From positions 1-59,179 of the forward strand of contig JAITDT010000024.1 in assembly GCA_031282425.1 (NCBI GenBank): a stretch of DNA of 59,179 nt, written 5' to 3'. Shown here piece by piece: positions 42,654 through 54,769 of the stretch. Numbering within the stretch: the stretch's first letter is position 1; each line of letters starts with the position of its first letter. The notes beneath the pieces are model-generated. The model saw only the letters and a program-made list of their open reading frames with translations, ran no database searches and was not told the origin of the DNA. A program made the position numbers and the translations under genes. The stretch is from Holosporaceae bacterium (GTDB lineage Bacteria; Pseudomonadota; Alphaproteobacteria; UBA3830).

Positions 42654-43085
42654 CTAGGATAGAATTCTCTGCAATATCCAGGATGAGGAATTGGCCTTAA
42701 AATTGCCTCCCACGCCAAATTCTAACGTTATATTACACTCTTGGCATACTGGCGCTTCCGGAATATTTTCACTGGTGCGGTCTCCGCCATTGGCAAAAAC
42801 GAGCTCATCTTGAGGATATTTTTCTCGAACTTTACGAATTCCGCAGCAAGCCGAATTGTCGGAATCATCGAAGCTCAATACGTCTATTATACCTTTAATG
42901 TTAGAACAAATAACCTCTCGAGTGTGGTAGCTCATGAAATTCTTGCCTTTTTTCCGACACAACCATTCATCGGAGTTCAGCAGCAGTATTACACCGTCGG
43001 ATTGGCAAGCAGCGGAACGAATCATTTCAATGTGCCCTTCGTGAAGAGGATCAAATCCGCCACTCACTATATAGTACTTATTCAT
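42654..43085 (-). CDS. cytidylyltransferase-family nucleotidyltransferase (RfaE domain II / TagD-like)
   Basis: YIVSGGFDPLHEGHIEMI is the (H/T)xGH nucleotidyltransferase motif; 143 aa. Confidence 0.7.
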   Translation of the reverse strand: MNKYYIVSGGFDPLHEGHIEMIRSAACQSDGVILLLNSDEWLCRKKGKNFMSYHTREVICSNIKGIIDVLSFDDSDNSACCGIRKVREKYPQDELVFANGGDRTSENIPEAPVCQECNITLEFGVGGNFKANSSSWILQRILS

Positions 43086-44250
43086 ATCTTTCTTTCAGAA
43101 TTCTCATAACCTCATCCGGACCGGTTACGGCGATAACTTCGGCATTCTCTAAATCATGCAGTCGCCGCGCCAGCGTGTAATCGTTGCCTCCTCGCTCTGT
43201 GCGGTCTCCAAAAAAGACTATTTTTTCCGTTTTATACGTACGGCGCAAGTGATCGGCAACTTGCTCTTTTCCCAAACCGCGCTGAACGATATCTATGCTG
43301 ATATTTCCTCCGACGGAAATATCATATTGCGGATAATCTGTGGATAATTCCAAAGCAATTTTTTCGCGCTCTCGATTGTCATTATCCCAATCATTATATT
43401 TTATCCGGGCTTCATGGGGACAATCGCGCCCAAGCACGCTGAAATTAATCATACCCCGCCTTCTTTCCAGATAATTTGGGTAAAGTTCCCCTTGATAGGC
43501 GGTGCTGTTGCGATAATGTTCCAACTTTTCCAATAACTTCTGTTCGGGATTAAAGTCATTCTTATATATTAAATTTCCCCTTTCATAAAATTCATTTCCC
43601 ATAGATGCATAAATACCCGCGACGCCACTGATTATCGCCTTTGGAAGTTGCTCTAATATTTTCTTATAATCAGATCCAGATACTATATAAAAAACTCTGT
43701 TCGATATGAATTTTTCCAAAAAAGCCGAAAAATCTTCACTCATTGGAAGACGAGCCGGCGTTAATGTGCCGTCCATATCCGCTAGAAATATGATCGATGC
43801 GCTGTCACGGCAGCATCGGCCATATAAATCCTCATAGCGAACAATATCATCCTCGTCCAAAATTTCTCCATATTGAGTCTCCTGAACAGTTAAGGATTCG
43901 CTGCCGGCGTTTTTTAATCGATGACGTGCACGCGCCGGAATCTCCGCAAACTCCGACGGTCTCAAAACACTAATAGAATCGCCGACTTCCACTTCCGCGA
44001 TTCCGGAAATAACCTCCCAACGTTCGGAGCGATGTTCATGAGATTGTAGCGACAAACTTGCGCTTTCTTCAACAACTATCGTCTTTTTTATAAAACCGTC
44101 GCCTACTTCGTTAACATGCCAGTAGCCCCAAGGTCTTTTCCCTACATCTCCTTTTTTATATATCATAAAATCGTCTTTTATATGATTAATTATATCTTGG
44201 CGCTGCATAGAAAGACAAGTGCAAAAGCTTAATCTTGAATATTCGAGCAT
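43078..44250 (-). CDS. fusion protein: cupin (type II mannose-6-phosphate isomerase-like) plus HAD-IIB eukaryotic-type phosphomannomutase-like domain
   Basis: N-terminal half: RPWGYW...SLQSHEHRSERWEVISGIAEVEVGD (cupin). C-terminal half: FLADMDGTLTPAR (DxDxT), YIVSGSDYKKILEQL and FFGDRTERGGNDYTL. Start uncertain. Confidence 0.65.
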   Translation of the reverse strand: MLEYSRLSFCTCLSMQRQDIINHIKDDFMIYKKGDVGKRPWGYWHVNEVGDGFIKKTIVVEESASLSLQSHEHRSERWEVISGIAEVEVGDSISVLRPSEFAEIPARARHRLKNAGSESLTVQETQYGEILDEDDIVRYEDLYGRCCRDSASIIFLADMDGTLTPARLPMSEDFSAFLEKFISNRVFYIVSGSDYKKILEQLPKAIISGVAGIYASMGNEFYERGNLIYKNDFNPEQKLLEKLEHYRNSTAYQGELYPNYLERRRGMINFSVLGRDCPHEARIKYNDWDNDNREREKIALELSTDYPQYDISVGGNISIDIVQRGLGKEQVADHLRRTYKTEKIVFFGDRTERGGNDYTLARRLHDLENAEVIAVTGPDEVMRILKERYE

Positions 44251-44396: not shown

Positions 44397-46334
44397 ATGG
44401 ACGCATTCTCTGTTCTTCCGATTGGGCCGTTTGAGCATGGATATCTGTATCTATCGGCGGAAAATTTGCAGGTTGGCGATGTGGTAGAAATTCCTTTGAG
44501 ACAACGCAACATCGTTGGCATTGTCACAGACGAAAATATAGAAACATCCCGAGAACTCAAGACCATATCCCGAATCTTTGGTTTTAATATTGGAAAGACA
44601 AATTATGATTTTCTAAAGTGGGTTTCGGACTATACTATGATTCCCCGTGGTCACGTGTTGAAAATGATGCTGGGAGAAAGGAGCTTATTCAATCGTCAAA
44701 AAAAAGACTGTTCAAAACCTTTCGACAGAATCGTCGCATCTTTTCAAGAAATCAATCTAAATCTGAGCCAATTAGTGGCCTATCAAAGAATTATCAAAAG
44801 CGGAGCAAGGCCTTTTCTGCTGAAAGGAGTAACTGGATCTGGAAAAACAGAGGTATATCTGGCGGCAGTAAAAGACATTTTACAACAAAATAAGCAAGCG
44901 TTAATTTTATTTCCGGAAATTGCCTTAACTCAACAGATAGTTAGGCGCATAGAGAAATATTTTGGTTTCGCTCCCATCGTTTGGAATTCCAATACAACGC
45001 CAAAAAACAAAAGAATGACGTGGCTTAGAGCGATTTCTGGAGAATCTTGCATTGTAGTTGGAGCGCGATCAGCGTTGTTTGTTCCATTTAAAAACCTCGG
45101 AATGATAGTGGTTGACGAAGAACACGACTCTTCCTATAAGCAAGAGGAGGGTGTATTTTATAATGCTCGCGATATGGCAGTTGTTCGCGGACATTTGCAA
45201 AAAATTCCGGTAATTCTGTCTTCTGCTACTCCATCTTTAGAGAGTTATGTGAATGCCCAGAAAGAAAAATATGGGCACGCATTTTTGGAAGATAGATTCG
45301 GGTCGTCAAAGATTCCTCCCATTAATTTGATAGATATGAGACAGAATAAGTTTAAGGGATTCATATCCCCCGTCCTTTTAGAGGAAATTAAATCCACTTT
45401 ATCTAGAAAGGAGCAGTCGTTAATTTATTTAAATAGACGTGGATATTCTCCGATTACTTTATGCAGATCCTGCGGAGCCAAGGTTTCCTGTCCGAATTGT
45501 TCCACCTGGCTTGTTTACCATAGAAAGCATGATAAACTAATATGTCATTATTGTAATCATCATATAAACGTTCCATCCAGCTGCCTTAGTTGCGGCTCCG
45601 CCGATTCTTATATTCCGTTTGGCCCGGGAATTGAGAGAATTTTTGAAGAACTTCATGAAAAAATTCCCCATGCACGCATTGAAATAGCATCTTCCGATAC
45701 GATTTCGTCCGACAAAGATATCGAGGGCTTGTTTGATAAAATCAACAAAAACGAAGTCGATGTGATGATAGGAACGCAAATTTTAGCTAAAGGTCATCAT
45801 TTTCCTAATATTACTCTTGTGGGTGTGGCGGATGGGGATTTAGGGTTGAACGGTGCCGACATGCGAGCATCTGAAAAAACCTATCAGCTGGTAAGTCAAG
45901 TTACCGGCCGAGCTGGACGCTCTGAAAAGCCGGGGAAAATCCTTATACAAACATTTGATCCGGAGCATCCTTTGTACGCTGCATTAAAATCCGATAATCC
46001 GGAGCATTTCATAAAGCTCGAGATAGAATCGCGAAAAAATAATGAATTACCGCCTTTTTGCAAATTTATAGCCATTATAGTTTCCGGAACAAATCGAGAA
46101 TTGACAGGACAAGTTGCCGAAAATTTGGGCAGATCATGTCCACCCAATCTGCAAATGTTTGGTCCAGCTCCGGCTCCATTTTTTTTGCTTCGTGGCAGGA
46201 CAAGATGGAGATTTTTATTGAAAACATCAAAAAAAAATTCTATAAACGAGGTCATAAAATGCTGGATATCTTCAGTAAGAATACCAAAAAACATTAAAAT
46301 ACAAATAGATATCGATCCTATTAGTTTTTTTTGA
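44397..46334 (+). CDS. priA: primosomal replication-restart helicase PriA
   Basis: Walker A GVTGSGKTEVY, VVDEEHDSSYKQ (DExH), and Cys-rich zinc fingers CRSCGAKVSCPNC...CHYC...CLSCGS. Confidence 0.95.
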   Translation: MDAFSVLPIGPFEHGYLYLSAENLQVGDVVEIPLRQRNIVGIVTDENIETSRELKTISRIFGFNIGKTNYDFLKWVSDYTMIPRGHVLKMMLGERSLFNRQKKDCSKPFDRIVASFQEINLNLSQLVAYQRIIKSGARPFLLKGVTGSGKTEVYLAAVKDILQQNKQALILFPEIALTQQIVRRIEKYFGFAPIVWNSNTTPKNKRMTWLRAISGESCIVVGARSALFVPFKNLGMIVVDEEHDSSYKQEEGVFYNARDMAVVRGHLQKIPVILSSATPSLESYVNAQKEKYGHAFLEDRFGSSKIPPINLIDMRQNKFKGFISPVLLEEIKSTLSRKEQSLIYLNRRGYSPITLCRSCGAKVSCPNCSTWLVYHRKHDKLICHYCNHHINVPSSCLSCGSADSYIPFGPGIERIFEELHEKIPHARIEIASSDTISSDKDIEGLFDKINKNEVDVMIGTQILAKGHHFPNITLVGVADGDLGLNGADMRASEKTYQLVSQVTGRAGRSEKPGKILIQTFDPEHPLYAALKSDNPEHFIKLEIESRKNNELPPFCKFIAIIVSGTNRELTGQVAENLGRSCPPNLQMFGPAPAPFFLLRGRTRWRFLLKTSKKNSINEVIKCWISSVRIPKNIKIQIDIDPISFF

Positions 46335-46434
46335 AATTAACCCATTATAAATAAATTTATTATACTCTTTAGTGGTGCAAAGTATTAGAGCTGCGATTCC
46401 ATCGTAGCTCCAGTTTAGATTTGAAGGTATCGTA

Positions 46435-48495
46435 ATGGTAGAAAGCACGCAGCATGTATTAGATAGAGTCCGTTCTCCTCGAGTACAAATCACCTATGAC
46501 GTGGAGATAGGGAATGCTATAGTTATGAAGGAGTTACCCTTTGTTATAGGAGCGCTAATCGATTTATCAGGCATGCCGGTGGATCCGTTGCCTCCCATTA
46601 AACTTAGAAAATTTGTGGAAGTGGATAGGGACAATCTTCCGGACTTCATGATATCAATCAATCCACGCTTAGCTATACAGGTAAAAGACACGCTGGAAGA
46701 TGGATCAGAGGATCTGAATGCAGAGTTGTTTTTCAAGCATATGGATGACTTCGGTCCCATTAGTATTGCTCGGCAGGTGCCCAAATTAAATAAAATATAT
46801 TCTTCACGCATAAAATTAAACGATTTGGTGGTAAAGCTGGAAGGGAATGATCCTCTTCAGCAGTGCGTAAAAGATATCGTTGCAGATGCCGGATTAAAAG
46901 CCGCTTTAAAAGCCCAAATTGACGCTGTTTTAAAGGCTAACAAACAGTCAATTACGGCGGACTTCGCCACTGCCCAAACGCCGAATGGCGTCGCCCCTCC
47001 GCCGTCAGGAGGCGGAGCTACCGCTGCCGGCGCGCCTCCTGCCGCTGACGCTCCAAAAATGAATCGAGAAATCCTGAAAGAAATGTTTGTGGGCGGTAAA
47101 CTTGCGCGAGATCCATCGGCGGAAGTATATGCGTGCAGCATACTACTGGAGCTACTTCTTAAAATTGAGGAAACGAAGGTAACTGTGATGAAAAATCCTC
47201 TTGCCTTTGTGGAAAAGGCGGTGGCAGACATCGACGCTATACTGAGCGCTCAAATTAACGAGATCCTACATAATCAGGCGTTTCAGGAACTCGAGGGTAC
47301 ATGGCGGGCGTTGCACTATTTAATAATGAATACAGAAACCAGCACTCAATTAAAAATAAGAGTGATGAACGCGACGAAAAAAGATTTGCTGGACGATCTG
47401 GAAAACGCCGTCGAGTTTGATCAAAGTCAGCTATTTAAAAAAGTATATGAAGAAGAGTACGGTACTTTTGGTGGCCATCCTTATTCCTGCCTCATTGGCG
47501 GATACGAATTTACGCGTCATCCGCAAGATATATTACTACTGGAGAAAATTTCCAATGTTGCTGCTGCTGCGCACGCTCCATTTATCGCCGCGGCTCATCC
47601 GCGCATGTTCGATATGGAAAGTTTCACGCATCTTGCCGGACCGCGTGATATATCAAAAATCTTTGAAAGTACGGAAATGATCAAGTGGAGGTCTTTCCGG
47701 GATAGCGAAGATTCCAGATACGCAGCGCTGGTGCTGCCGCGGGTACTTATGAGATTGCCCTATGGGCCGGATACATTACCCGTCGATGGTATGAGTTATG
47801 TGGAATCCATAGATGGCAATGATAATTCGCAATTTTGCTGGGGAAATGCAGCCTTTGTTTTGGCTCAACGAATTGGTTATGCGGTTTCGCTGTATAAATG
47901 GCCCGCCGCCATTCGCGGCGTTGAGGGTGGTGGACTGGTGGAGGAACTGCCGGCTTACACATTTAAAACCACCGACGGCGATATCGCGCTAAAATGTCCA
48001 ACAGAAATAGCCATTACCGATCGTCGGGAAAAAGAATTGACAGATATGGGGTTTTTGGCAATTTGCCATAGTAAAGGAACTGACTTCGCCGCCTTTTTCG
48101 GCGGGCAAACTACCCAGAAACCCAAGGTCTATAATACAGATGATGCCAATGCGAACGCTGCACTGAGCGCACGGCTACCGTACTTGCTAGCAGCGTCCAG
48201 ATTTGCTCATTACATAAAGGCGATCATGCGCGATAAAATTGGGGCTTTTCTGACGAAGGACAATGTCTCTTCCTATCTTAATAATTGGATAGCCAATTAT
48301 GTTCTATTAAACGATTCTGCCAGCCAGGATCTCAAGGCTAAATTTCCGCTACGGGAAGCTCGAATAGACGTATTCGATATTCCGGGTAAGCCGGGATCCT
48401 ATAAGGCGACTATATTTTTGAGGCCGCACTTCCAATTGGAAGAGCTGACGGCGTCCATAAGATTGGTGGCCAGTTTGCCGCCACCGGCCAAGTAA
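46435..48495 (+). CDS. tssBC: type VI secretion contractile sheath, TssB (VipA) and TssC (VipB) fused in one polypeptide
   Basis: aa 1-~170 carry TssB blocks: RVQITYDVE, ELPFVIGALIDLSG, RKFVEVDRDNLPDF, ELFFKHMDDFGPISIARQVPKL. Then a P/A/G linker GVAPPPSGGGATAAGAPPAADAP. Then TssC blocks: ILHNQAFQELEGTWRALHYL, YGTFGGHPYSCLIGGYEF, AAAAHAPFIAAAHP, LVLPRVLMRLPYG, LRPHFQLEELTASIRLV. Confidence 0.85.
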   Translation: MVESTQHVLDRVRSPRVQITYDVEIGNAIVMKELPFVIGALIDLSGMPVDPLPPIKLRKFVEVDRDNLPDFMISINPRLAIQVKDTLEDGSEDLNAELFFKHMDDFGPISIARQVPKLNKIYSSRIKLNDLVVKLEGNDPLQQCVKDIVADAGLKAALKAQIDAVLKANKQSITADFATAQTPNGVAPPPSGGGATAAGAPPAADAPKMNREILKEMFVGGKLARDPSAEVYACSILLELLLKIEETKVTVMKNPLAFVEKAVADIDAILSAQINEILHNQAFQELEGTWRALHYLIMNTETSTQLKIRVMNATKKDLLDDLENAVEFDQSQLFKKVYEEEYGTFGGHPYSCLIGGYEFTRHPQDILLLEKISNVAAAAHAPFIAAAHPRMFDMESFTHLAGPRDISKIFESTEMIKWRSFRDSEDSRYAALVLPRVLMRLPYGPDTLPVDGMSYVESIDGNDNSQFCWGNAAFVLAQRIGYAVSLYKWPAAIRGVEGGGLVEELPAYTFKTTDGDIALKCPTEIAITDRREKELTDMGFLAICHSKGTDFAAFFGGQTTQKPKVYNTDDANANAALSARLPYLLAASRFAHYIKAIMRDKIGAFLTKDNVSSYLNNWIANYVLLNDSASQDLKAKFPLREARIDVFDIPGKPGSYKATIFLRPHFQLEELTASIRLVASLPPPAK

Positions 48496-48547
48496 TCGGC
48501 GGTCTTTGGGTGAATGTTTTAAAACGTGGTTTTGTTGGAGGTGTTAG

Positions 48548-49138
48548 ATGAGCAGCAATAATAGAGGATTTGAAATGTTTAGCCAAATTCAAAGGCCTGA
48601 CATGCTTGGCAAAAGCGATGAAAGCCTTAATGCACCGAGTGGAGCCTCAAAAACTCCCCAATGGGTTATTGGAACGGATGATGATACCGGTATTTTTGAT
48701 AGCGATATGGACGGCGATTTTGCCAAAATGGCTGTGGTCCTCTGGATAGTATTCGGAGGCGCTCGATTAGCAACATACGACTCCTCAGGACAGCAATCCG
48801 GAGACGGAAAAATAGTCAATCGCGACGTTGTCGTATGTATGAAATTTGGAGACTACGGTCCGCCTCTTCAGCAATGGATGTTTTCTGGGAAAAAAATTAC
48901 CACTATTACCATAAAAAGGGTAATTAGCGTAAACGGCACGCTCGTGGTGATCCAGGAATTAACCTACGGAACGTGCGTCATAAAGACCTACGAGCAAAAT
49001 GGCGACATTATTACGTTTACATTTACTTTTGTCACCTATACCGACATGAGTCTAGCCTACGATCATGACGGAACGCTAGTCGGACGTGTTGGAATGTCAT
49101 ATGACGCTGCTAAAATTACGGTAGCCGCTGTATCTTAA
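48548..49138 (+). CDS. hcp: divergent Hcp (TssD)-like tube protein with N-terminal extension
   Basis: GGAGG lies 9 nt upstream. The C-terminal ~130 aa (VVVCMKFGDYGPPLQQWMFSGKKITTITIKRV...LTYGTCVIKTYEQNGD..ITFTFTFVTYTDMSLAYDHDGTLVG) follow the Hcp pattern: K-x-x-D-x-x-SP-x-L-like block, then G-x-x-(I/L) and alternating beta-strands. It sits directly downstream of the sheath gene. Confidence 0.55.
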   Translation: MSSNNRGFEMFSQIQRPDMLGKSDESLNAPSGASKTPQWVIGTDDDTGIFDSDMDGDFAKMAVVLWIVFGGARLATYDSSGQQSGDGKIVNRDVVVCMKFGDYGPPLQQWMFSGKKITTITIKRVISVNGTLVVIQELTYGTCVIKTYEQNGDIITFTFTFVTYTDMSLAYDHDGTLVGRVGMSYDAAKITVAAVS

Positions 49139-51313: not shown

Positions 51314-51730
51314 CTAATACTTGATTTTTCTGAGAATAGTCGATGAGATTTTATCATCTTTGTCTTTACTACCGCGGGATGACCCGAACTCGAAGCTGTA
51401 AGCGTCCTTGAGACAAGCTCCGAAAATCCCGGAAACTGTGGAGATGATGCCCACAACTTCGCCGGGAAGATTGCCGCTATAGGAGGTTAGCGTTAATATG
51501 CAGAAAATTAATCCCAGCGCCGCTCCAACCACCATGATATTCAACCTTCTGTTGCGACCGCAGGCGTTTATTACGGTCACCTTGTTGTCGTCATTTCCGC
51601 TATTTGCATTTTCGAGATCTGGAGTTTTTGGGTTCACTGGCGTCGCAGCGTCGATATGATTGTCGATGGAACGTTGAGTTTCGTTTTTCATTGTTTTTAC
51701 TGGATCTAAAATTATTTTTTCTATGGTCAT
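51314..51730 (-). CDS. small 2-TM membrane protein (holin-like or immunity-like by position)
   Basis: 138 aa with a hydrophilic N-terminus, two hydrophobic helices (IMVVGAALGLIFCILTL and VVGIISTVSGIFGACL) and a charged tail. Its ATG overlaps the upstream stop (ATGA). Confidence 0.6.
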   Translation of the reverse strand: MTIEKIILDPVKTMKNETQRSIDNHIDAATPVNPKTPDLENANSGNDDNKVTVINACGRNRRLNIMVVGAALGLIFCILTLTSYSGNLPGEVVGIISTVSGIFGACLKDAYSFEFGSSRGSKDKDDKISSTILRKIKY

Positions 51731-52146
51731 TTTTTTCTCCTTAATTCATAAAAATAATGTGAGCCGAAAATTCGCTTCGGCTCCAGATAAGCTGCCCAAA
51801 ATGGTCGAATGGTTCGCTCATGATAATGATCGCATCCGTCCGTTAGATCCGGCCATTTTTCCAGTAGCACATTTTGAGCTACGTCAAGACAAATTCTAAA
51901 AATAGAGTGTTCATCGGTGATATTTTTTACCTTTTCATAATTCGCATCCTCGCTGTTCCAGCAGGAAAATTGATATGGAGCAAAGCATACGTCGGCTATC
52001 GTCTTGGCGAAATTTTTATTTTTTCTGTTTACGATGACGTTGGCGATTGCTATAAGAGAAGCTATTCCAAATTTGTATAATTCTCCGCGTCCCTCCCCAT
52101 ATATGGTTTTGGCTAAGGTATTCAGATCGTTTTCCGAGAAGTTCAC
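51727..52146 (-). CDS. SleB-type cell wall hydrolase (Hydrolase_2 family), no signal peptide
   Basis: LAKTIYGEGRGE...IAIANVIVNR...YQFSCWN is the SleB/Hydrolase_2 pattern. Its GTG start overlaps the upstream stop (GTGA). Confidence 0.75.
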   Translation of the reverse strand: MNFSENDLNTLAKTIYGEGRGELYKFGIASLIAIANVIVNRKNKNFAKTIADVCFAPYQFSCWNSEDANYEKVKNITDEHSIFRICLDVAQNVLLEKWPDLTDGCDHYHERTIRPFWAAYLEPKRIFGSHYFYELRRKK

Positions 52147-53030
52147 GATTCCTCCTTTATAAAGTTAATCAAAATTAGATTGGTTTTAGGAGTGCACAGG
52201 ACGGCGTTGCTCCTATAGATGGATTCTTCACTTGTGTTTTTGTTGATTATGCTTATTCGGCAAGCGCCATTTTTCAACTCGTCGTAGAGGTTGGTTCTTT
52301 GGGATGCAGAGAAATTTTTTACGCCGACGAATTGATAACCAGATTCGCTTTTTTGATCCACAGTTGGATCGACACCCAAATTTCGCATTACGCTTAGGGG
52401 AGATATTCGTAGGTATAGCTGCTTTCCATCCGATACGGTCCGAAAAACGCATGATTCTATCAATTGCGGATGCATCCCGTATTCGCATATTCCTCCGTAG
52501 GGATAAATTATGCATTTCGCAAACGTATTTTCGTGCCTCAATAAACCTCTTTGATTTGCGACTTCAGATATTGCTTCGGAACAGACAAGAAATTCCTTTT
52601 CGAAAAGGCAATCTGTCGAAAGATTTATTCGATAATCGCCAAAATCTTTTCCGACGAACGTATTGAGCTCGTTCTCCTGTAAATATCTTCCGGTATTTTC
52701 AAAGGTTACGATAATTTTTGAGCAACAGGATTTTGGATTTTGGATCTGCGATTGCGAATCTACCGGCGGCGAATCATAGAGCGCCGCTCGACCTAAAAGT
52801 TTTGAGTCTTCGAGACGCACTATGGTTGCGCCGCTCGTTATGTGGATCGGCGTAATACCAGCGTTCAATTGAATTGAATCCGGCCAAGAATTCGCTATTG
52901 TTGCGTAGCTATCGTCGCTATGCGATTCAACGACGATACAAGCCGATATGTTTTCGTCCGTATCTGGAATATCCGCGAAATCGCGATGATAGCCGGCAGA
53001 GAGAGCTCTTATTCCTCTCGTAATTGTCAT
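52143..53030 (-). CDS. hypothetical protein (295 aa), operon member
   Basis: Long ORF translationally coupled on both sides. No motif recognised. Confidence 0.6.
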   Translation of the reverse strand: MTITRGIRALSAGYHRDFADIPDTDENISACIVVESHSDDSYATIANSWPDSIQLNAGITPIHITSGATIVRLEDSKLLGRAALYDSPPVDSQSQIQNPKSCCSKIIVTFENTGRYLQENELNTFVGKDFGDYRINLSTDCLFEKEFLVCSEAISEVANQRGLLRHENTFAKCIIYPYGGICEYGMHPQLIESCVFRTVSDGKQLYLRISPLSVMRNLGVDPTVDQKSESGYQFVGVKNFSASQRTNLYDELKNGACRISIINKNTSEESIYRSNAVLCTPKTNLILINFIKEES

Positions 53031-54769
53031 GATTGCTCCATTTCAAAATCCGGCAGAGTTATTTCGCGCGTAATTACTCTCGCCGTATTCAGGGGGTGAA
53101 GATGTAATTTGATTTTCGTCTCGTGTTTTTTTAATTCCGCTGTCAGCTCTGCGCTAGAGCTCGCAACTGTTTGCGCTAGAATGGCAATTTGCTCTTCCGG
53201 AGTATTTTCCACTTCAATTTTTTGTACGATATCCGCAGGATTAACATTGCCGGTATCGGCAGGCACGATTATCATATGGGAATTTAATTTGTCGAAGCTT
53301 TGCGATAAGTCTGCGCCGCTATGACCGATAGTAAATTTGATTATCTTTCGATCGGCGTTGCCCAAGAATCTCATTCTTACAATTTTTCCGGAGATGCGCC
53401 CGCCGCTGAAGCGATCGTCATGAAGGGTGATTTGATCATTTACGCTGGCGTTCATGAATTTCTTTGCTTCGACGCAAAAATCTATCTCGATATTGCGGGA
53501 TGAATAATTAACAAGCGCGATTGCCTTTTGCATCGCGTATTTTATGGCGTTCGCCCCGCGAGTTGTTGCAAAAAACGACGAACTCATATCGTCTTTCAGG
53601 GCGCCGGGAATTTTTTCCACAAAATTCCATTTATCTTGCTCAAAAATTTCGCCAGAAACATGCGCAAATGCGCAGGCGAAAACACTGTCGCCGTATCGAA
53701 CTTTTTCACTGCGCCCATAATAAGTAAAATGACTCCAGATTGGATATTCCTTTGGCAGCTGAAGCGCATTTAATCGCAGATAGACATTTTTCTCCCTCCC
53801 GTACAGAGACGATGGATTAACAATCCGAACTGTTACGGTCTCAACGCGCTTTTGTTTATAAATCCAGCTGAGAATTAATTTTCCGGCGAAATAAAATCGC
53901 CGAAACAGAACCTTTTTCCGATCGGAAGATTTCTGCACGTAGAAATCCGGAGATAAAAGGAGATATTCATTTCCAAATCCGCGATTGTTCGGATTTATTT
54001 CTTTGATATCGCAGTGAATTACCTCATATCCGCCTCTATTGGAAGATATTTTCTTGATTCCAGATTTTATATTTGTAAAGGAATTAATTATACGCTGCGC
54101 AAATTTTGCGGCAATCATTGGCATAACATCGATAATTCCGCGTTCATGCTGAACCCAACTGGCGGATATTTTTAGATTAACAACTCGATATGGTTCTCGC
54201 GCAACTCTCACTCTAATAGAGTCTTGTAAAATTTCGGCGCCATTTATATCGAAATTTTTTTGTCCGTGCTTTATATCAGACAGCGACAATTGTCCGTTTC
54301 GCATATCCCAGCAGAAAATTTTGCCGCATCCTTCCAGGAAAATTGTTGGGTTTTTCAAATCTCTAGAGGAAAAAAACAAATCGTCGAACAGAATGCTATC
54401 TTTTAGTGGCAAATGATTATCAACGGAATGATACCGTTCAAAATTTGCATCGGAAAATTCAGATAATTTGGTCTGAAAATCGTCCGGCTCGGCGATAAAT
54501 TCCAATTCCATTGTCGAACCGCCAAATCCTACGGGGAAGGCAACGAGTCGCCCAGAAAAGATCAACTCCACAGCGCCGTCGGTTTGCATACCTATTTTCA
54601 TATATTTCTTATTTTGTAATTTATCTGCGTCTCGAGTGCCAATTGTTACTTTGGCGATGGCGAATCCACATTCCTTTTGGAAGATTTCCAAAGAAATTAT
54701 CTCTTCGTCGCCACGCCAATTACTTTTGTCTTCATAAAATGAAGAGCTCCAATCGAATATTAATTTCAT
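53027..54769 (-). CDS. hypothetical protein (580 aa), first gene of the operon; possibly phage-tail or baseplate-like
   Basis: Long ORF with the purine-rich AGGAAAGAAGAAA before its ATG. It appears beta-rich. No catalytic motif recognised, so the function assignment is speculative. Confidence 0.6.
   Translation of the reverse strand: MKLIFDWSSSFYEDKSNWRGDEEIISLEIFQKECGFAIAKVTIGTRDADKLQNKKYMKIGMQTDGAVELIFSGRLVAFPVGFGGSTMELEFIAEPDDFQTKLSEFSDANFERYHSVDNHLPLKDSILFDDLFFSSRDLKNPTIFLEGCGKIFCWDMRNGQLSLSDIKHGQKNFDINGAEILQDSIRVRVAREPYRVVNLKISASWVQHERGIIDVMPMIAAKFAQRIINSFTNIKSGIKKISSNRGGYEVIHCDIKEINPNNRGFGNEYLLLSPDFYVQKSSDRKKVLFRRFYFAGKLILSWIYKQKRVETVTVRIVNPSSLYGREKNVYLRLNALQLPKEYPIWSHFTYYGRSEKVRYGDSVFACAFAHVSGEIFEQDKWNFVEKIPGALKDDMSSSFFATTRGANAIKYAMQKAIALVNYSSRNIEIDFCVEAKKFMNASVNDQITLHDDRFSGGRISGKIVRMRFLGNADRKIIKFTIGHSGADLSQSFDKLNSHMIIVPADTGNVNPADIVQKIEVENTPEEQIAILAQTVASSSAELTAELKKHETKIKLHLHPLNTARVITREITLPDFEMEQS

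What the first reader, a model, noticed from the sequence alone, without database searches (positions are those of the whole stretch)
46435..48495. TssB and TssC encoded as a single 686-aa polypeptide (fused T6SS sheath)
Canonical type VI systems encode the small (TssB/VipA/IglA) and large (TssC/VipB/IglB) sheath subunits as two adjacent genes. Here one uninterrupted ORF carries both. The N-terminal part has clear TssB blocks (RVQITYDVE, ELPFVIGALIDLSG, RKFVEVDRDNLPDF, FFKHMDDFGPISIARQVPKL). A Pro/Ala/Gly linker follows (GVAPPPSGGGATAAGAPPAADAP, about nt 46985-47055), which is conspicuously GC-rich in an AT-rich genome. Then comes a complete TssC (AFQELEGTWRALHYL, AAAAHAPFIAAAHP, LVLPRVLMRLPYG, LRPHFQLEEL). 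A covalent fusion would fix 1:1 stoichiometry. It would also tether the TssC N-terminus, which in canonical systems becomes the ClpV docking site after contraction, and no clpV is visible here. I am not aware of this arrangement being described, but I cannot search.
Basis: partly seen in the sequence, partly recalled or inferred. Interest (0 to 1): 0.8.

Follow-up and report, generated by a model that had tools for sequence, protein, structure and literature searches.

The report
Fused TssB–TssC sheath gene, real
One uninterrupted gene really does encode both subunits of the type VI secretion sheath, joined by a floppy linker, but such natural fusions were noted in 2013 and have arisen repeatedly in bacteria, so this is a modest curiosity rather than a new kind of machine.

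Summary
ORF 46435-48495 (+) has no internal stop. It carries a full-length TssB (aa 6-163), a 46-aa low-complexity linker, and a full-length TssC (aa 212-682).

It is not an assembly error. 117 of the 120 best-matching protein clusters carry the same fusion, with in-frame linkers of 1-121 aa. Both modules are under strong purifying selection. A divergent Hcp gene follows it, giving a tssBC-hcp operon in a Holosporaceae-type endosymbiont whose other T6SS genes lie outside the window.

The arrangement is not new. Lossi et al. (2013) noted TssB+TssC domains combined in single proteins. In my survey, 16 of the 80 most similar species-level loci are truly fused, and these represent at least three independent origins. 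In the split relatives I read, tssB and tssC are mostly in the same frame, separated by a stop and a few codons, so stop loss is the likely route.

The ClpV argument is weak. A recently fused Pseudomonas aeruginosa allele sits in a complete cluster with ClpV, and a split Holosporales relative also lists no ClpV. I found no functional study of a natural single-chain sheath.

Verdict: a new member of a known kind. Interest is low to moderate.

The parts
46435..48495 (+). tssBC: single ORF of 686 aa encoding the fused T6SS sheath small and large subunits (stop TAA at 48493-48495)
   Evidence: The start is confirmed by the conserved N-terminus M(V/A/T)ESTQHxLDRVR in homologues.
46435..46929 (+). 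TssB/VipA module, aa 1-165. It includes the conserved N-terminal strand RVQITYDVE and the C-terminal helices.
   Evidence: PF05591 and TIGR03358 match full length. 9n4v_B residues 1-161 align with aa 1-160. Invariant columns R16-E24.
46930..47067 (+). Linker, aa 166-211. It comprises a clade-conserved LKANKQSITADFAT (aa 166-179), a hypervariable Pro/Ala/Gly/Thr core (aa 185-207, nt 46987-47055, 78% GC) and KMNR.
   Evidence: AF2 pLDDT is below 50 for aa 172-209. Linker length is 1-121 aa and rich in A/T/D/P/G/S across 117 fused clusters. dN is 0.30-0.64, against 0.09-0.20 in the two modules.
47068..48492 (+). TssC/VipB module, aa 212-686. It starts with the N-terminal helix EILKEMF, which aligns with LSLLDRII at the N-terminus of the Azotobacter TssC (9n4v_A) and with LSLLDEII in the Pa58 protein.
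   Evidence: TIGR03355 3-473/473, PF05943 and PF18945. 9n4v_A residues 14-491 align with aa 208-685, E 4.5e-216. Foldseek hits to the TssC chains 9n4v, 5n8n, 5urx and 3j9g.
48548..49138 (+). Divergent hcp (inner tube) gene, 196 aa, 52 nt downstream, with GGAGG at 48537-48541
   Evidence: No Pfam hit. The AF2 model (pLDDT 71) matches Hcp structures: 4w64 E 1.4e-10 TMt 0.75; 1y12 TMt 0.76-0.81. The position after tssBC is conserved in relatives.
46337..46366 (+). Weak sigma-70-like site (TTAACC-18-TATACT) in the 100-nt priA-tssBC spacer. A GAAGG Shine-Dalgarno-like site lies at about 46423-46427.
   Evidence: 9/12 match, and the number of sites in the region is no higher than in shuffles, so this is only a candidate. 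Sequence.

Best explanation
This is a genuine gene fusion. It produces a single-chain T6SS sheath protomer in a Holosporaceae-type intracellular alphaproteobacterium, expressed together with a divergent Hcp tube protein.

The TssB part and the TssC part fold together as in the canonical heterodimer. The N-terminal strand of TssB and the C-terminal strands of TssC still provide the inter-subunit links. The roughly 46-aa disordered linker loops out from the surface-exposed, T6SS-specific domain 3, which is where the C-terminal helices of TssB and the N-terminal helices of TssC lie anyway.

The fusion most likely arose by loss of the tssB stop codon. In the split relatives I read, tssB and tssC mostly lie in the same frame, separated by a stop and a few codons. 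After fusion the linker drifted as low-complexity sequence. The fusion fixes 1:1 stoichiometry but is probably close to neutral.

Shown: the fusion, its conservation, purifying selection, the Hcp neighbour and recurrent origins. Inferred: that the protein stays in one piece and assembles and contracts like a normal sheath, and that stop loss was the route in this particular lineage.
For: Single ORF with complete TssB and TssC profiles. 117 of the 120 best clusters at 90% identity are fused, at 57-91% identity, from NCBI, JGI, ENA and Logan assemblies, with linkers of 1-121 aa always in frame. The one apparent split that I inspected (P0105) is a run of 10 N inside the linker of a scaffold.

Synonymous sites are saturated, while dN is 0.13-0.20 (TssB), 0.09-0.11 (TssC) and 0.30-0.64 (linker). 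There is no conserved Met in the linker: M209 is replaced in relatives.

The AF2 model has a confident helical TssB C-terminus and TssC N-terminus flanking a linker with pLDDT below 50. It matches both chains of solved sheaths. Domain 3 is built from the C-terminal helices of VipA and the N-terminal helices of VipB and lies on the sheath surface (Basler 2015, PMC4632598). TssB-sfGFP fusions still assemble sheaths.

The hcp gene is adjacent and priA-tssBC-hcp synteny is conserved. Of the 64 split relatives, 56 have tssB and tssC in frame with only stop(s) and a short spacer between them. The P. aeruginosa Pa58 allele shows such a junction read through...PLPGEAAMPKSS....
Against: There is no expression or protein-level data for this organism. 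Proteolytic processing in the linker cannot be excluded. The conserved LKANKQ[ST][IV]TADFAT segment at the start of the linker suggests that part of the linker is not a passive tether.

The other core T6SS genes are not in the window, so a complete apparatus is inferred from literature on relatives, not shown here. The monomer AF2 model is only moderate (pLDDT 69.6), and I could not measure the distance between the termini in a solved structure.
Confidence: 0.8

Rival explanations
1. Assembly or sequencing artefact: two ordinary genes, with a stop or frameshift hidden in the GC-rich, low-complexity linker.
For: Low-complexity linkers are hard to assemble. In one relative the linker holds a 10-N scaffold gap that splits the gene call.
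Against: The same fusion appears in 117 of the 120 best clusters from independent assemblies. All length differences are in frame, and relatives at 80-91% identity read through.
Confidence: 0.02
2. One gene but two proteins: TssC is made separately by internal initiation, or the precursor is cleaved in the linker, so that the working sheath is the usual heterodimer.
For: There is an ATG (M209, nt 47059-47061) just before the TssC helix. The linker is disordered and so accessible to proteases. A conserved motif at aa 166-179 could be a recognition site. In P. aeruginosa Pa58 the former tssC start and its upstream spacer are retained inside the linker.
Against: M209 is not conserved in relatives, which have KTDR, QNTR, TTNR or GGAR at that position. 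I saw no Shine-Dalgarno-like sequence in front of it. No processing of sheath proteins is known (my own knowledge).
Confidence: 0.1
3. Adaptive fusion tied to loss of ClpV. Once the sheath is no longer recycled through a free TssC N-terminus, fusion becomes tolerated or useful, and the long disordered linker serves as a handle for another unfoldase such as ClpB.
For: The old fused lineages show no ClpV where related clusters have it. Woeseiaceae has tssBC-hcp-E-F-G-vgrG and Thalassomonas has tssBC-hcp-E-F-G-(183-aa ORF)-K-L. The fused Holosporales-type loci are dispersed with no ClpV nearby. The only fused allele seen with ClpV is a very recent one, found in two P. aeruginosa genomes.
Against: Split Holosporales relatives are equally without a listed ClpV, so ClpV absence does not track the fusion within that group. 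Only about 10 kb on each side was visible, so ClpV may lie elsewhere. Many fused proteins have almost no linker.
Confidence: 0.15
4. Decaying remnant: a pseudogenised T6SS locus in a reduced genome.
For: The gene stands apart from other T6SS genes. Holosporaceae T6SSs were reported as lacking tube and TssJ.
Against: Strong purifying selection and invariant structural motifs. The supposedly missing tube gene is present next door. T6SS genes are dispersed yet conserved and transcribed in a relative.
Confidence: 0.03

Closest known systems
Canonical two-gene sheath TssB/TssC (VipA/VipB); closest solved example is the Azotobacter vinelandii extended sheath-tube complex, PDB 9n4v
   Same: Both modules match full length. 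9n4v_A residues 14-491 align with aa 208-685 (E 4.5e-216), with 64% identity over the Foldseek alignment. 9n4v_B residues 1-161 align with aa 1-160. The conserved N- and C-terminal strands are retained.
   Different: Here the two chains are joined covalently. The roughly 26-residue TssB tail and roughly 13-residue TssC head of the Azotobacter proteins are replaced by one continuous linker of about 46 residues.
Natural DUF770+DUF877 (TssB+TssC) single proteins noted by Lossi et al. 2013, e.g. a 622-aa protein of gamma proteobacterium HdN1 (PMC3597794)
   Same: The same domain architecture in one polypeptide. I found a well-supported fused gammaproteobacterial clade: Thalassomonas, Algicola, Woeseiaceae, Kangiella and Psychrosphaera.
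   Different: That clade is a separate origin from this one (99% and 100% bootstrap for the two clades). In Thalassomonas and Woeseiaceae the gene sits in compact T6SS clusters and, in the junctions I read, has a short linker. Here the gene is isolated and its linker is long and hypervariable.
Dispersed T6SS of Holosporales endosymbionts, e.g. Ca. Bodocaedibacter vickermanii CPBP_00985/00986/00987
   Same: The same tssB-tssC-hcp block away from the other T6SS genes. The Hcp is divergent. No tssH is listed.
   Different: In Bodocaedibacter, TssB (513 nt) and TssC (1455 nt) are separate genes, as they are in UBA6184 and the MAGs Cd354 and Gx481. The window's clade has them fused.
Single-chain sheaths of contractile phages and pyocins (T4 gp18 type)
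   Same: One polypeptide forms the whole sheath protomer. Lossi et al. used this analogy.
   Different: No Pfam phage-sheath family matches. The T6SS-specific domain 3 is present. This is a secondary re-fusion of T6SS genes, not retention of a phage-type gene.
P. aeruginosa Pa58 (CP021775) fused 683-aa allele
   Same: 57% identical to the window protein. TssB and TssC lie in one ORF with a Pro/Ala-rich linker.
   Different: It is a recent event nested among split Pseudomonas clusters (100% bootstrap). It lies in a complete cluster with ClpV, TssA/E/F/G/K/L/M, Hcp and VgrG, and the old tssC start Met is still visible in the linker.

Membership tests
TssB/VipA small sheath subunit (PF05591, TIGR03358) | Full-length profile match above the curated cutoff | tested here: met
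   PF05591 146.3 bits (cutoff 24), profile 2-154/155. TIGR03358 146.7 bits (cutoff 97.25), 1-158/160.
TssC/VipB large sheath subunit (PF05943 + PF18945, TIGR03355) | Full-length profile match above the curated cutoff, including the C-terminal gp25-like domain | tested here: met
   TIGR03355 660 bits (cutoff 271.5), 3-473/473. PF05943 425.6 bits. PF18945 145.5 bits.
TssB/TssC sheath fold | Predicted structure matches solved sheath subunits | tested here: met
   Foldseek: 9n4v_A E 1.6e-30, 5n8n_B 2e-28, 3j9g 2e-23 (TssC chains) and 5n8n_A 9.5e-5 (TssB chain). The model is only moderate, pLDDT 69.6.
Naturally fused TssB-TssC architecture | No stop or frameshift between the two modules, and the junction is conserved in relatives | tested here: met
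Naturally fused TssB-TssC architecture | The product remains one polypeptide in the cell | not testable with these tools
   Needs protein-level data. The only indirect evidence is the lack of a conserved internal start.
Type VI secretion system (complete apparatus) | Tube protein Hcp encoded with the sheath | tested here: met
   The 196-aa ORF at 48548-49138 has an Hcp fold. No sequence-profile hit.
Type VI secretion system (complete apparatus) | Baseplate and membrane-complex genes (tssA/E/F/G/K/L/M, vgrG) in the same genome | not testable with these tools
   None found in the 59-kb window by tblastn with a full Pseudomonas cluster, nor by Pfam on the larger ORFs I scanned. Relatives keep these genes at other loci.
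ClpV-recycled T6SS | ClpV/TssH encoded in the genome | not testable with these tools
   No ClpV or ClpB in the window. Not listed for Ca. Bodocaedibacter. The rest of the genome is unavailable.
Phage-type single-chain sheath (gp18-like) | Match to phage sheath families | tested here: not met
   Pfam returns only the three T6SS sheath families.

The most novel reading that the evidence does not exclude
Long-lived sheath fusions may mark T6SSs that have given up ClpV-mediated recycling. With no need for a free TssC N-terminus the fusion persists. In the Holosporaceae clade the hypervariable disordered linker, with its conserved LKANKQxxTADFAT start, would then have acquired a role of its own on the sheath surface, for instance as an engagement loop for ClpB or a docking site for a partner.
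Probability: 0.15. Interest if true: 0.55.

Novelty: new member of a known kind. Interest (0 to 1): 0.3.

Why it matters
A natural single-chain sheath shows that the TssB C-terminus and the TssC N-terminus can be tied together without loss of function over long evolutionary times. That is useful for engineering and for structural work on sheaths, and it gives a natural test of how much sheath recycling depends on a free TssC N-terminus.

For endosymbiont biology the practical points are two. These genes should be annotated as tssBC rather than 'large subunit'. The 'missing' inner tube of Holosporaceae T6SSs is probably a divergent Hcp encoded next to the sheath gene.

Because the fusion was noted in 2013 and arises easily and repeatedly, the finding does not change the picture of how T6SSs work.

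Tried and rejected
1. A first, naive test for fusion asked whether any stop-free frame covered the tblastn match. It called 17 of 80 loci fused, including Tundrisphaera TA3. Translation showed that this case was an off-frame artefact of a high-GC genome. In the true frame tssB ends ...AEES* and tssC follows.

2. A second, frame-aware test wrongly called Thalassomonas, Algicola and Woeseiaceae split, because the HMM alignment ran past the true stop. Manual reading fixed this. The final count is 16 fused of 80.

3. The 'query residues 1-685 matched' column of the search for related loci cannot be read as fusion, because adjacent in-frame genes give the same picture.

4. The high share of in-frame tssB/tssC pairs among the split loci (56 of 64) is probably inflated by how the tool ranks matches. 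I do not claim enrichment.

5. P0105 looked like a split close relative. It is a scaffold gap of 10 N.

6. I asked whether the P. aeruginosa fused cluster is the published H4-T6SS. The H4 papers treat TssB4 and TssC4 as separate proteins and describe several tssB4 clades. Strain Pa58 is in their dataset, but I could not tell whether its cluster is counted as H4.

7. Searching the window for other T6SS genes found nothing. I used tblastn with 14 Pseudomonas T6SS proteins and Pfam on about 25 of the larger ORFs.

8. Nine literature searches found no paper on a natural fused sheath apart from the remark in Lossi et al. 2013. The Kudryashev 2015 structure paper is not held.

9. Tandem-repeat search of the linker DNA found nothing relevant.
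Full report
OBSERVATION

The window has one uninterrupted ORF at 46435..48495 on the + strand: 686 aa, ATG start, TAA stop. The quoted linker is aa 185-207, nt 46987-47055.

Pfam finds T6SS_VipA at aa 10-162 (E 8e-43, almost the whole profile), VipB at aa 261-561 (E 1e-127) and VipB_2 at aa 571-681. The NCBIfam equivalog models match end to end: TssB at aa 6-163 (1-158/160) and TssC at aa 212-682 (3-473/473). Both are far above their curated cutoffs. The ORF therefore carries two complete subunits, not a large subunit with an odd extension.

The linker core is 78% GC in a 41% GC window. Third-position GC is 52% in the linker and 45% in the rest of the gene, so the GC excess is a consequence of Ala, Pro and Gly codons.

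IS THE FUSION REAL?

A search of the 5.8-billion-protein collection returned 120 best clusters. Of these, 117 carry both modules. They share 57-91% identity with the window protein, measure 586-762 aa, and come from NCBI, JGI, ENA and Logan assemblies. Named ones are mostly 'Holosporaceae bacterium' or 'Alphaproteobacteria bacterium' MAGs.

Linker length ranges from 1 to 121 residues (median 50). The composition is dominated by A, T, D, P, G and S, and every variant stays in frame.

The three clusters without a TssB part are short (417-471 aa) and mostly on short contigs. The one I inspected, P0105, is split by a run of 10 N inside the linker of a scaffold, which is an assembly artefact.

I compared the window gene with five relatives. 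Synonymous sites are saturated. dN is 0.13-0.20 in the TssB part, 0.09-0.11 in the TssC part and 0.30-0.64 in the linker. Both modules are thus under strong purifying selection, and the linker evolves fast without ever breaking the frame.

The Met just before the TssC helix (M209) is not conserved in relatives, and I saw no ribosome-binding sequence in front of it. Separate initiation of TssC is therefore unlikely in this clade.

ANATOMY

An AlphaFold2 model built on 44 fused homologues (pLDDT 69.6) has three features:
- Confident helices at the end of the TssB part: 116-135, 139-150 and 152-168.
- A segment with pLDDT below 50 from aa 172 to 209.
- Confident helices at the start of the TssC part: 213-220, 227-247, 255-278 and 281-298.

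The N-terminal strand region (aa 13-32) and some C-terminal parts are also of low confidence. This is to be expected for a monomer model, because in the polymer these strands pair with neighbouring subunits (my own knowledge).

The model and the sequence match both chains of solved sheaths. The best match is the Azotobacter vinelandii extended sheath-tube complex, 9n4v. Its TssC residues 14-491 align with aa 208-685 (E 4.5e-216), and its TssB residues 1-161 align with aa 1-160. The Azotobacter TssB has about 26 more residues after the aligned part, and its TssC has about 13 before it. The roughly 46-residue linker here is about the sum of those two free tails.

According to Basler's 2015 review (PMC4632598), the surface-exposed part of the T6SS-specific domain 3 is built from the N-terminal helices of VipB and the C-terminal helices of VipA. 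The two ends that are joined here therefore lie in the same surface domain. C-terminal sfGFP tags on TssB are routinely tolerated (also my own knowledge of VipA-sfGFP).

The motifs that interlock subunits are invariant across the 44 aligned sequences: R16-E24 in TssB and L671-A679 in TssC.

CONTEXT

priA lies upstream (44397-46334).

A 196-aa ORF (48548-49138) lies 52 nt downstream, behind a GGAGG. It has no Pfam hit. Its 15 detectable homologues are all 'hypothetical' Holosporaceae proteins at 46-95% identity. Its AlphaFold2 model (pLDDT 71) matches Hcp structures exclusively at the top of the list: 4w64 at E 1.4e-10 and TM 0.75, and 1y12 at TM 0.76-0.81. The locus is therefore a tssBC-hcp operon.

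The priA-tssBC-hcp order is conserved in the window's clade. Some relatives carry two tandem hcp copies. Weaker homologues follow tssC in Caedibacter and other relatives.

No other T6SS gene is in the window, by tblastn with a full Pseudomonas cluster and by Pfam on the larger ORFs I scanned. This fits published accounts. In Bodocaedibacteraceae, Paracaedibacteraceae and Caedimonadaceae the T6SS genes sit at four or more loci, one of them [tssB-tssC-hcp] (Midha et al. 2021, PMC8163844). George et al. reported the tube and TssJ as missing in Holosporaceae (bioRxiv 719211), and a 2025 review repeats this. The Hcp-fold protein found here argues that the tube is present but divergent. Midha et al. 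had already suspected this for one gene.

HOW COMMON IS THE FUSION, AND HOW DID IT ARISE?

The exhaustive search of 1.84 billion cluster representatives gave 8729 hits. Among the best 150, about 115 proteins contain both modules. A fused query favours fused hits, so this is not a frequency. Some very long entries look like merged gene calls.

I scanned one genome per GTDB species and kept the 80 best loci. After two corrections to my own test, 16 of the 80 are truly fused:
- Holosporaceae and Holosporales MAGs.
- Two 'Caedibacter' MAGs.
- A Thiotrichales MAG.
- Thalassomonas, Algicola, Woeseiaceae, Kangiella and Psychrosphaera.

The other 64 are ordinary adjacent genes. Among them are Holosporales relatives at 55-69% identity (UBA6184, Cd354, Gx481) and several Pseudomonas species. 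Ca. Bodocaedibacter also has separate genes of 513 and 1455 nt.

A bootstrapped neighbour-joining tree of the TssC part gives the following support values:
- 100% for the window's clade.
- 99% for a fused gammaproteobacterial clade.
- 100% for Caedibacter + Thiotrichales.
- 100% for a third fused alphaproteobacterial group, with a split sister at 86%.
- 100% for a fused P. aeruginosa allele nested among split Pseudomonas clusters.
- 87% for a 'Holosporales-type' superclade that mixes fused and split members.

This indicates at least three independent fusions. Within the superclade there were either several more fusions or one fusion followed by fissions; the inner branching is unresolved.

The route is visible in the split relatives. 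TssB already ends in a Pro/Ala/Glu/Gly-rich tail. In most loci I hold, tssC follows in the same frame after one to a few stops and a short spacer, for example ...APAEPQA*SRASFKGDKAMPASS in Pseudomonas sp. R1-7. In P. aeruginosa Pa58 the same junction reads ...PDPLPGEAAMPKSS without a stop, and a second genome has a 99% identical allele.

Short-linker fused proteins from other endosymbiont-like contigs sit either in tssBC-hcp-like-tssE blocks or alone among housekeeping genes.

THE ClpV QUESTION

Three observations weaken this:
- The window is too small to say anything about the genome.
- The split relative Ca. Bodocaedibacter also lists no tssH.
- The fused Pa58 cluster encodes ClpV next to TssE/F/G.

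One pattern remains. In the old fused gammaproteobacterial clade the operon runs tssBC-hcp-tssE-F-G and then continues directly with vgrG (Woeseiaceae) or with a 183-aa ORF followed by tssK-L (Thalassomonas). Many split clusters have clpV at that point. With only 10 kb on each side visible, I cannot tell whether ClpV lies elsewhere in those genomes.

I keep 'fusion persists where ClpV recycling has been given up' as the most novel reading still open, at low probability. That Francisella recycles its sheath with ClpB, and that Hsp100 unfoldases can thread internal loops, is my own knowledge and was not tested here.

WHAT IS KNOWN

Lossi et al. [quoted passage not shown] They took this as support for fusion or splitting during evolution. 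Public annotation calls the Holosporaceae proteins 'contractile sheath large subunit'.

I found no paper that studies a natural fused sheath, and none that mentions the fusion in Holosporales. The H4-T6SS papers on P. aeruginosa treat TssB4 and TssC4 as separate proteins.

VERDICT

It is a lineage-specific member of an architecture that was already noted and that arises easily. The link to ClpV is unproven, and the mechanism is most likely that of an ordinary sheath whose two chains happen to be tied together at the surface. Interest is low to moderate.

Noticed in passing
window 48548-49138 (+): A 196-aa ORF with no Pfam hit and only Holosporaceae 'hypothetical' homologues has a clear Hcp fold. 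This suggests that the T6SS inner tube reported as missing in Holosporaceae is present but divergent. Relatives L002, L004 and L014 carry two tandem copies.
   Followed up: yes
window 46930-46971 (aa 166-179 of the fused protein): The segment LKANKQ[ST][IV]TADFAT at the start of the otherwise hypervariable linker is conserved throughout the window's clade (P0001 to about P0087). It is absent from split relatives and from other fused clades. Its role is unknown.
   Followed up: partly
L001 10001-12052 (P. aeruginosa Pa58, CP021775.1): A fused 683-aa tssBC allele in a complete T6SS cluster with ClpV and a sigma-54 activator. It is nested among split clusters of other Pseudomonas species. A second genome has a 99% identical allele whose differences cluster in the linker. 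I could not determine whether this cluster is one of the published H4-T6SS clades.
   Followed up: partly
L031 9992-18759 (Thalassomonas) and L064 9992-21945 (Woeseiaceae): The fused gammaproteobacterial clade has compact clusters that run tssBC-hcp-tssE-F-G and then continue directly with tssK-L or vgrG. No clpV is present at the place where many split clusters have one.
   Followed up: partly
proteins P0130, P0133, P0160, P0168, P0175, P0179, P0198, P0234, P0256 (representative library): These are TssB-TssC proteins with unusual lengths. Some have 290-800 aa N-terminal extensions without Pfam hits. P0130 has a roughly 300-aa linker. P0234 and P0256 have tandem double TssB-TssC units. P0168 is a 2151-aa protein that also holds kinase, TPR and TssK domains. 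Some are probably merged gene calls.
   Followed up: partly
window 43078-44250 (-): A 390-aa ORF combines a mannose-6-phosphate isomerase/cupin domain with a eukaryotic-type phosphomannomutase (PF03332). This is another fused enzyme, in mannose activation.
   Followed up: no
window 51314-54769 (-): A block of four co-oriented ORFs of 580, 295, 139 and 138 aa. Only the 139-aa ORF has a Pfam hit (cell wall hydrolase, PF07486). None resembles TssF, TssG or TssE. It may be a phage- or GTA-derived remnant.
   Followed up: no
L049 10001-12007 (Tundrisphaera sp. TA3): In this high-GC genome an off-frame stop-free stretch of more than 2.8 kb overlaps tssB-tssC and mimics a fusion. In the true frame tssB ends in a stop that is followed, one codon later, by the tssC start. 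This is a caution for automated fusion calls.
   Followed up: yes
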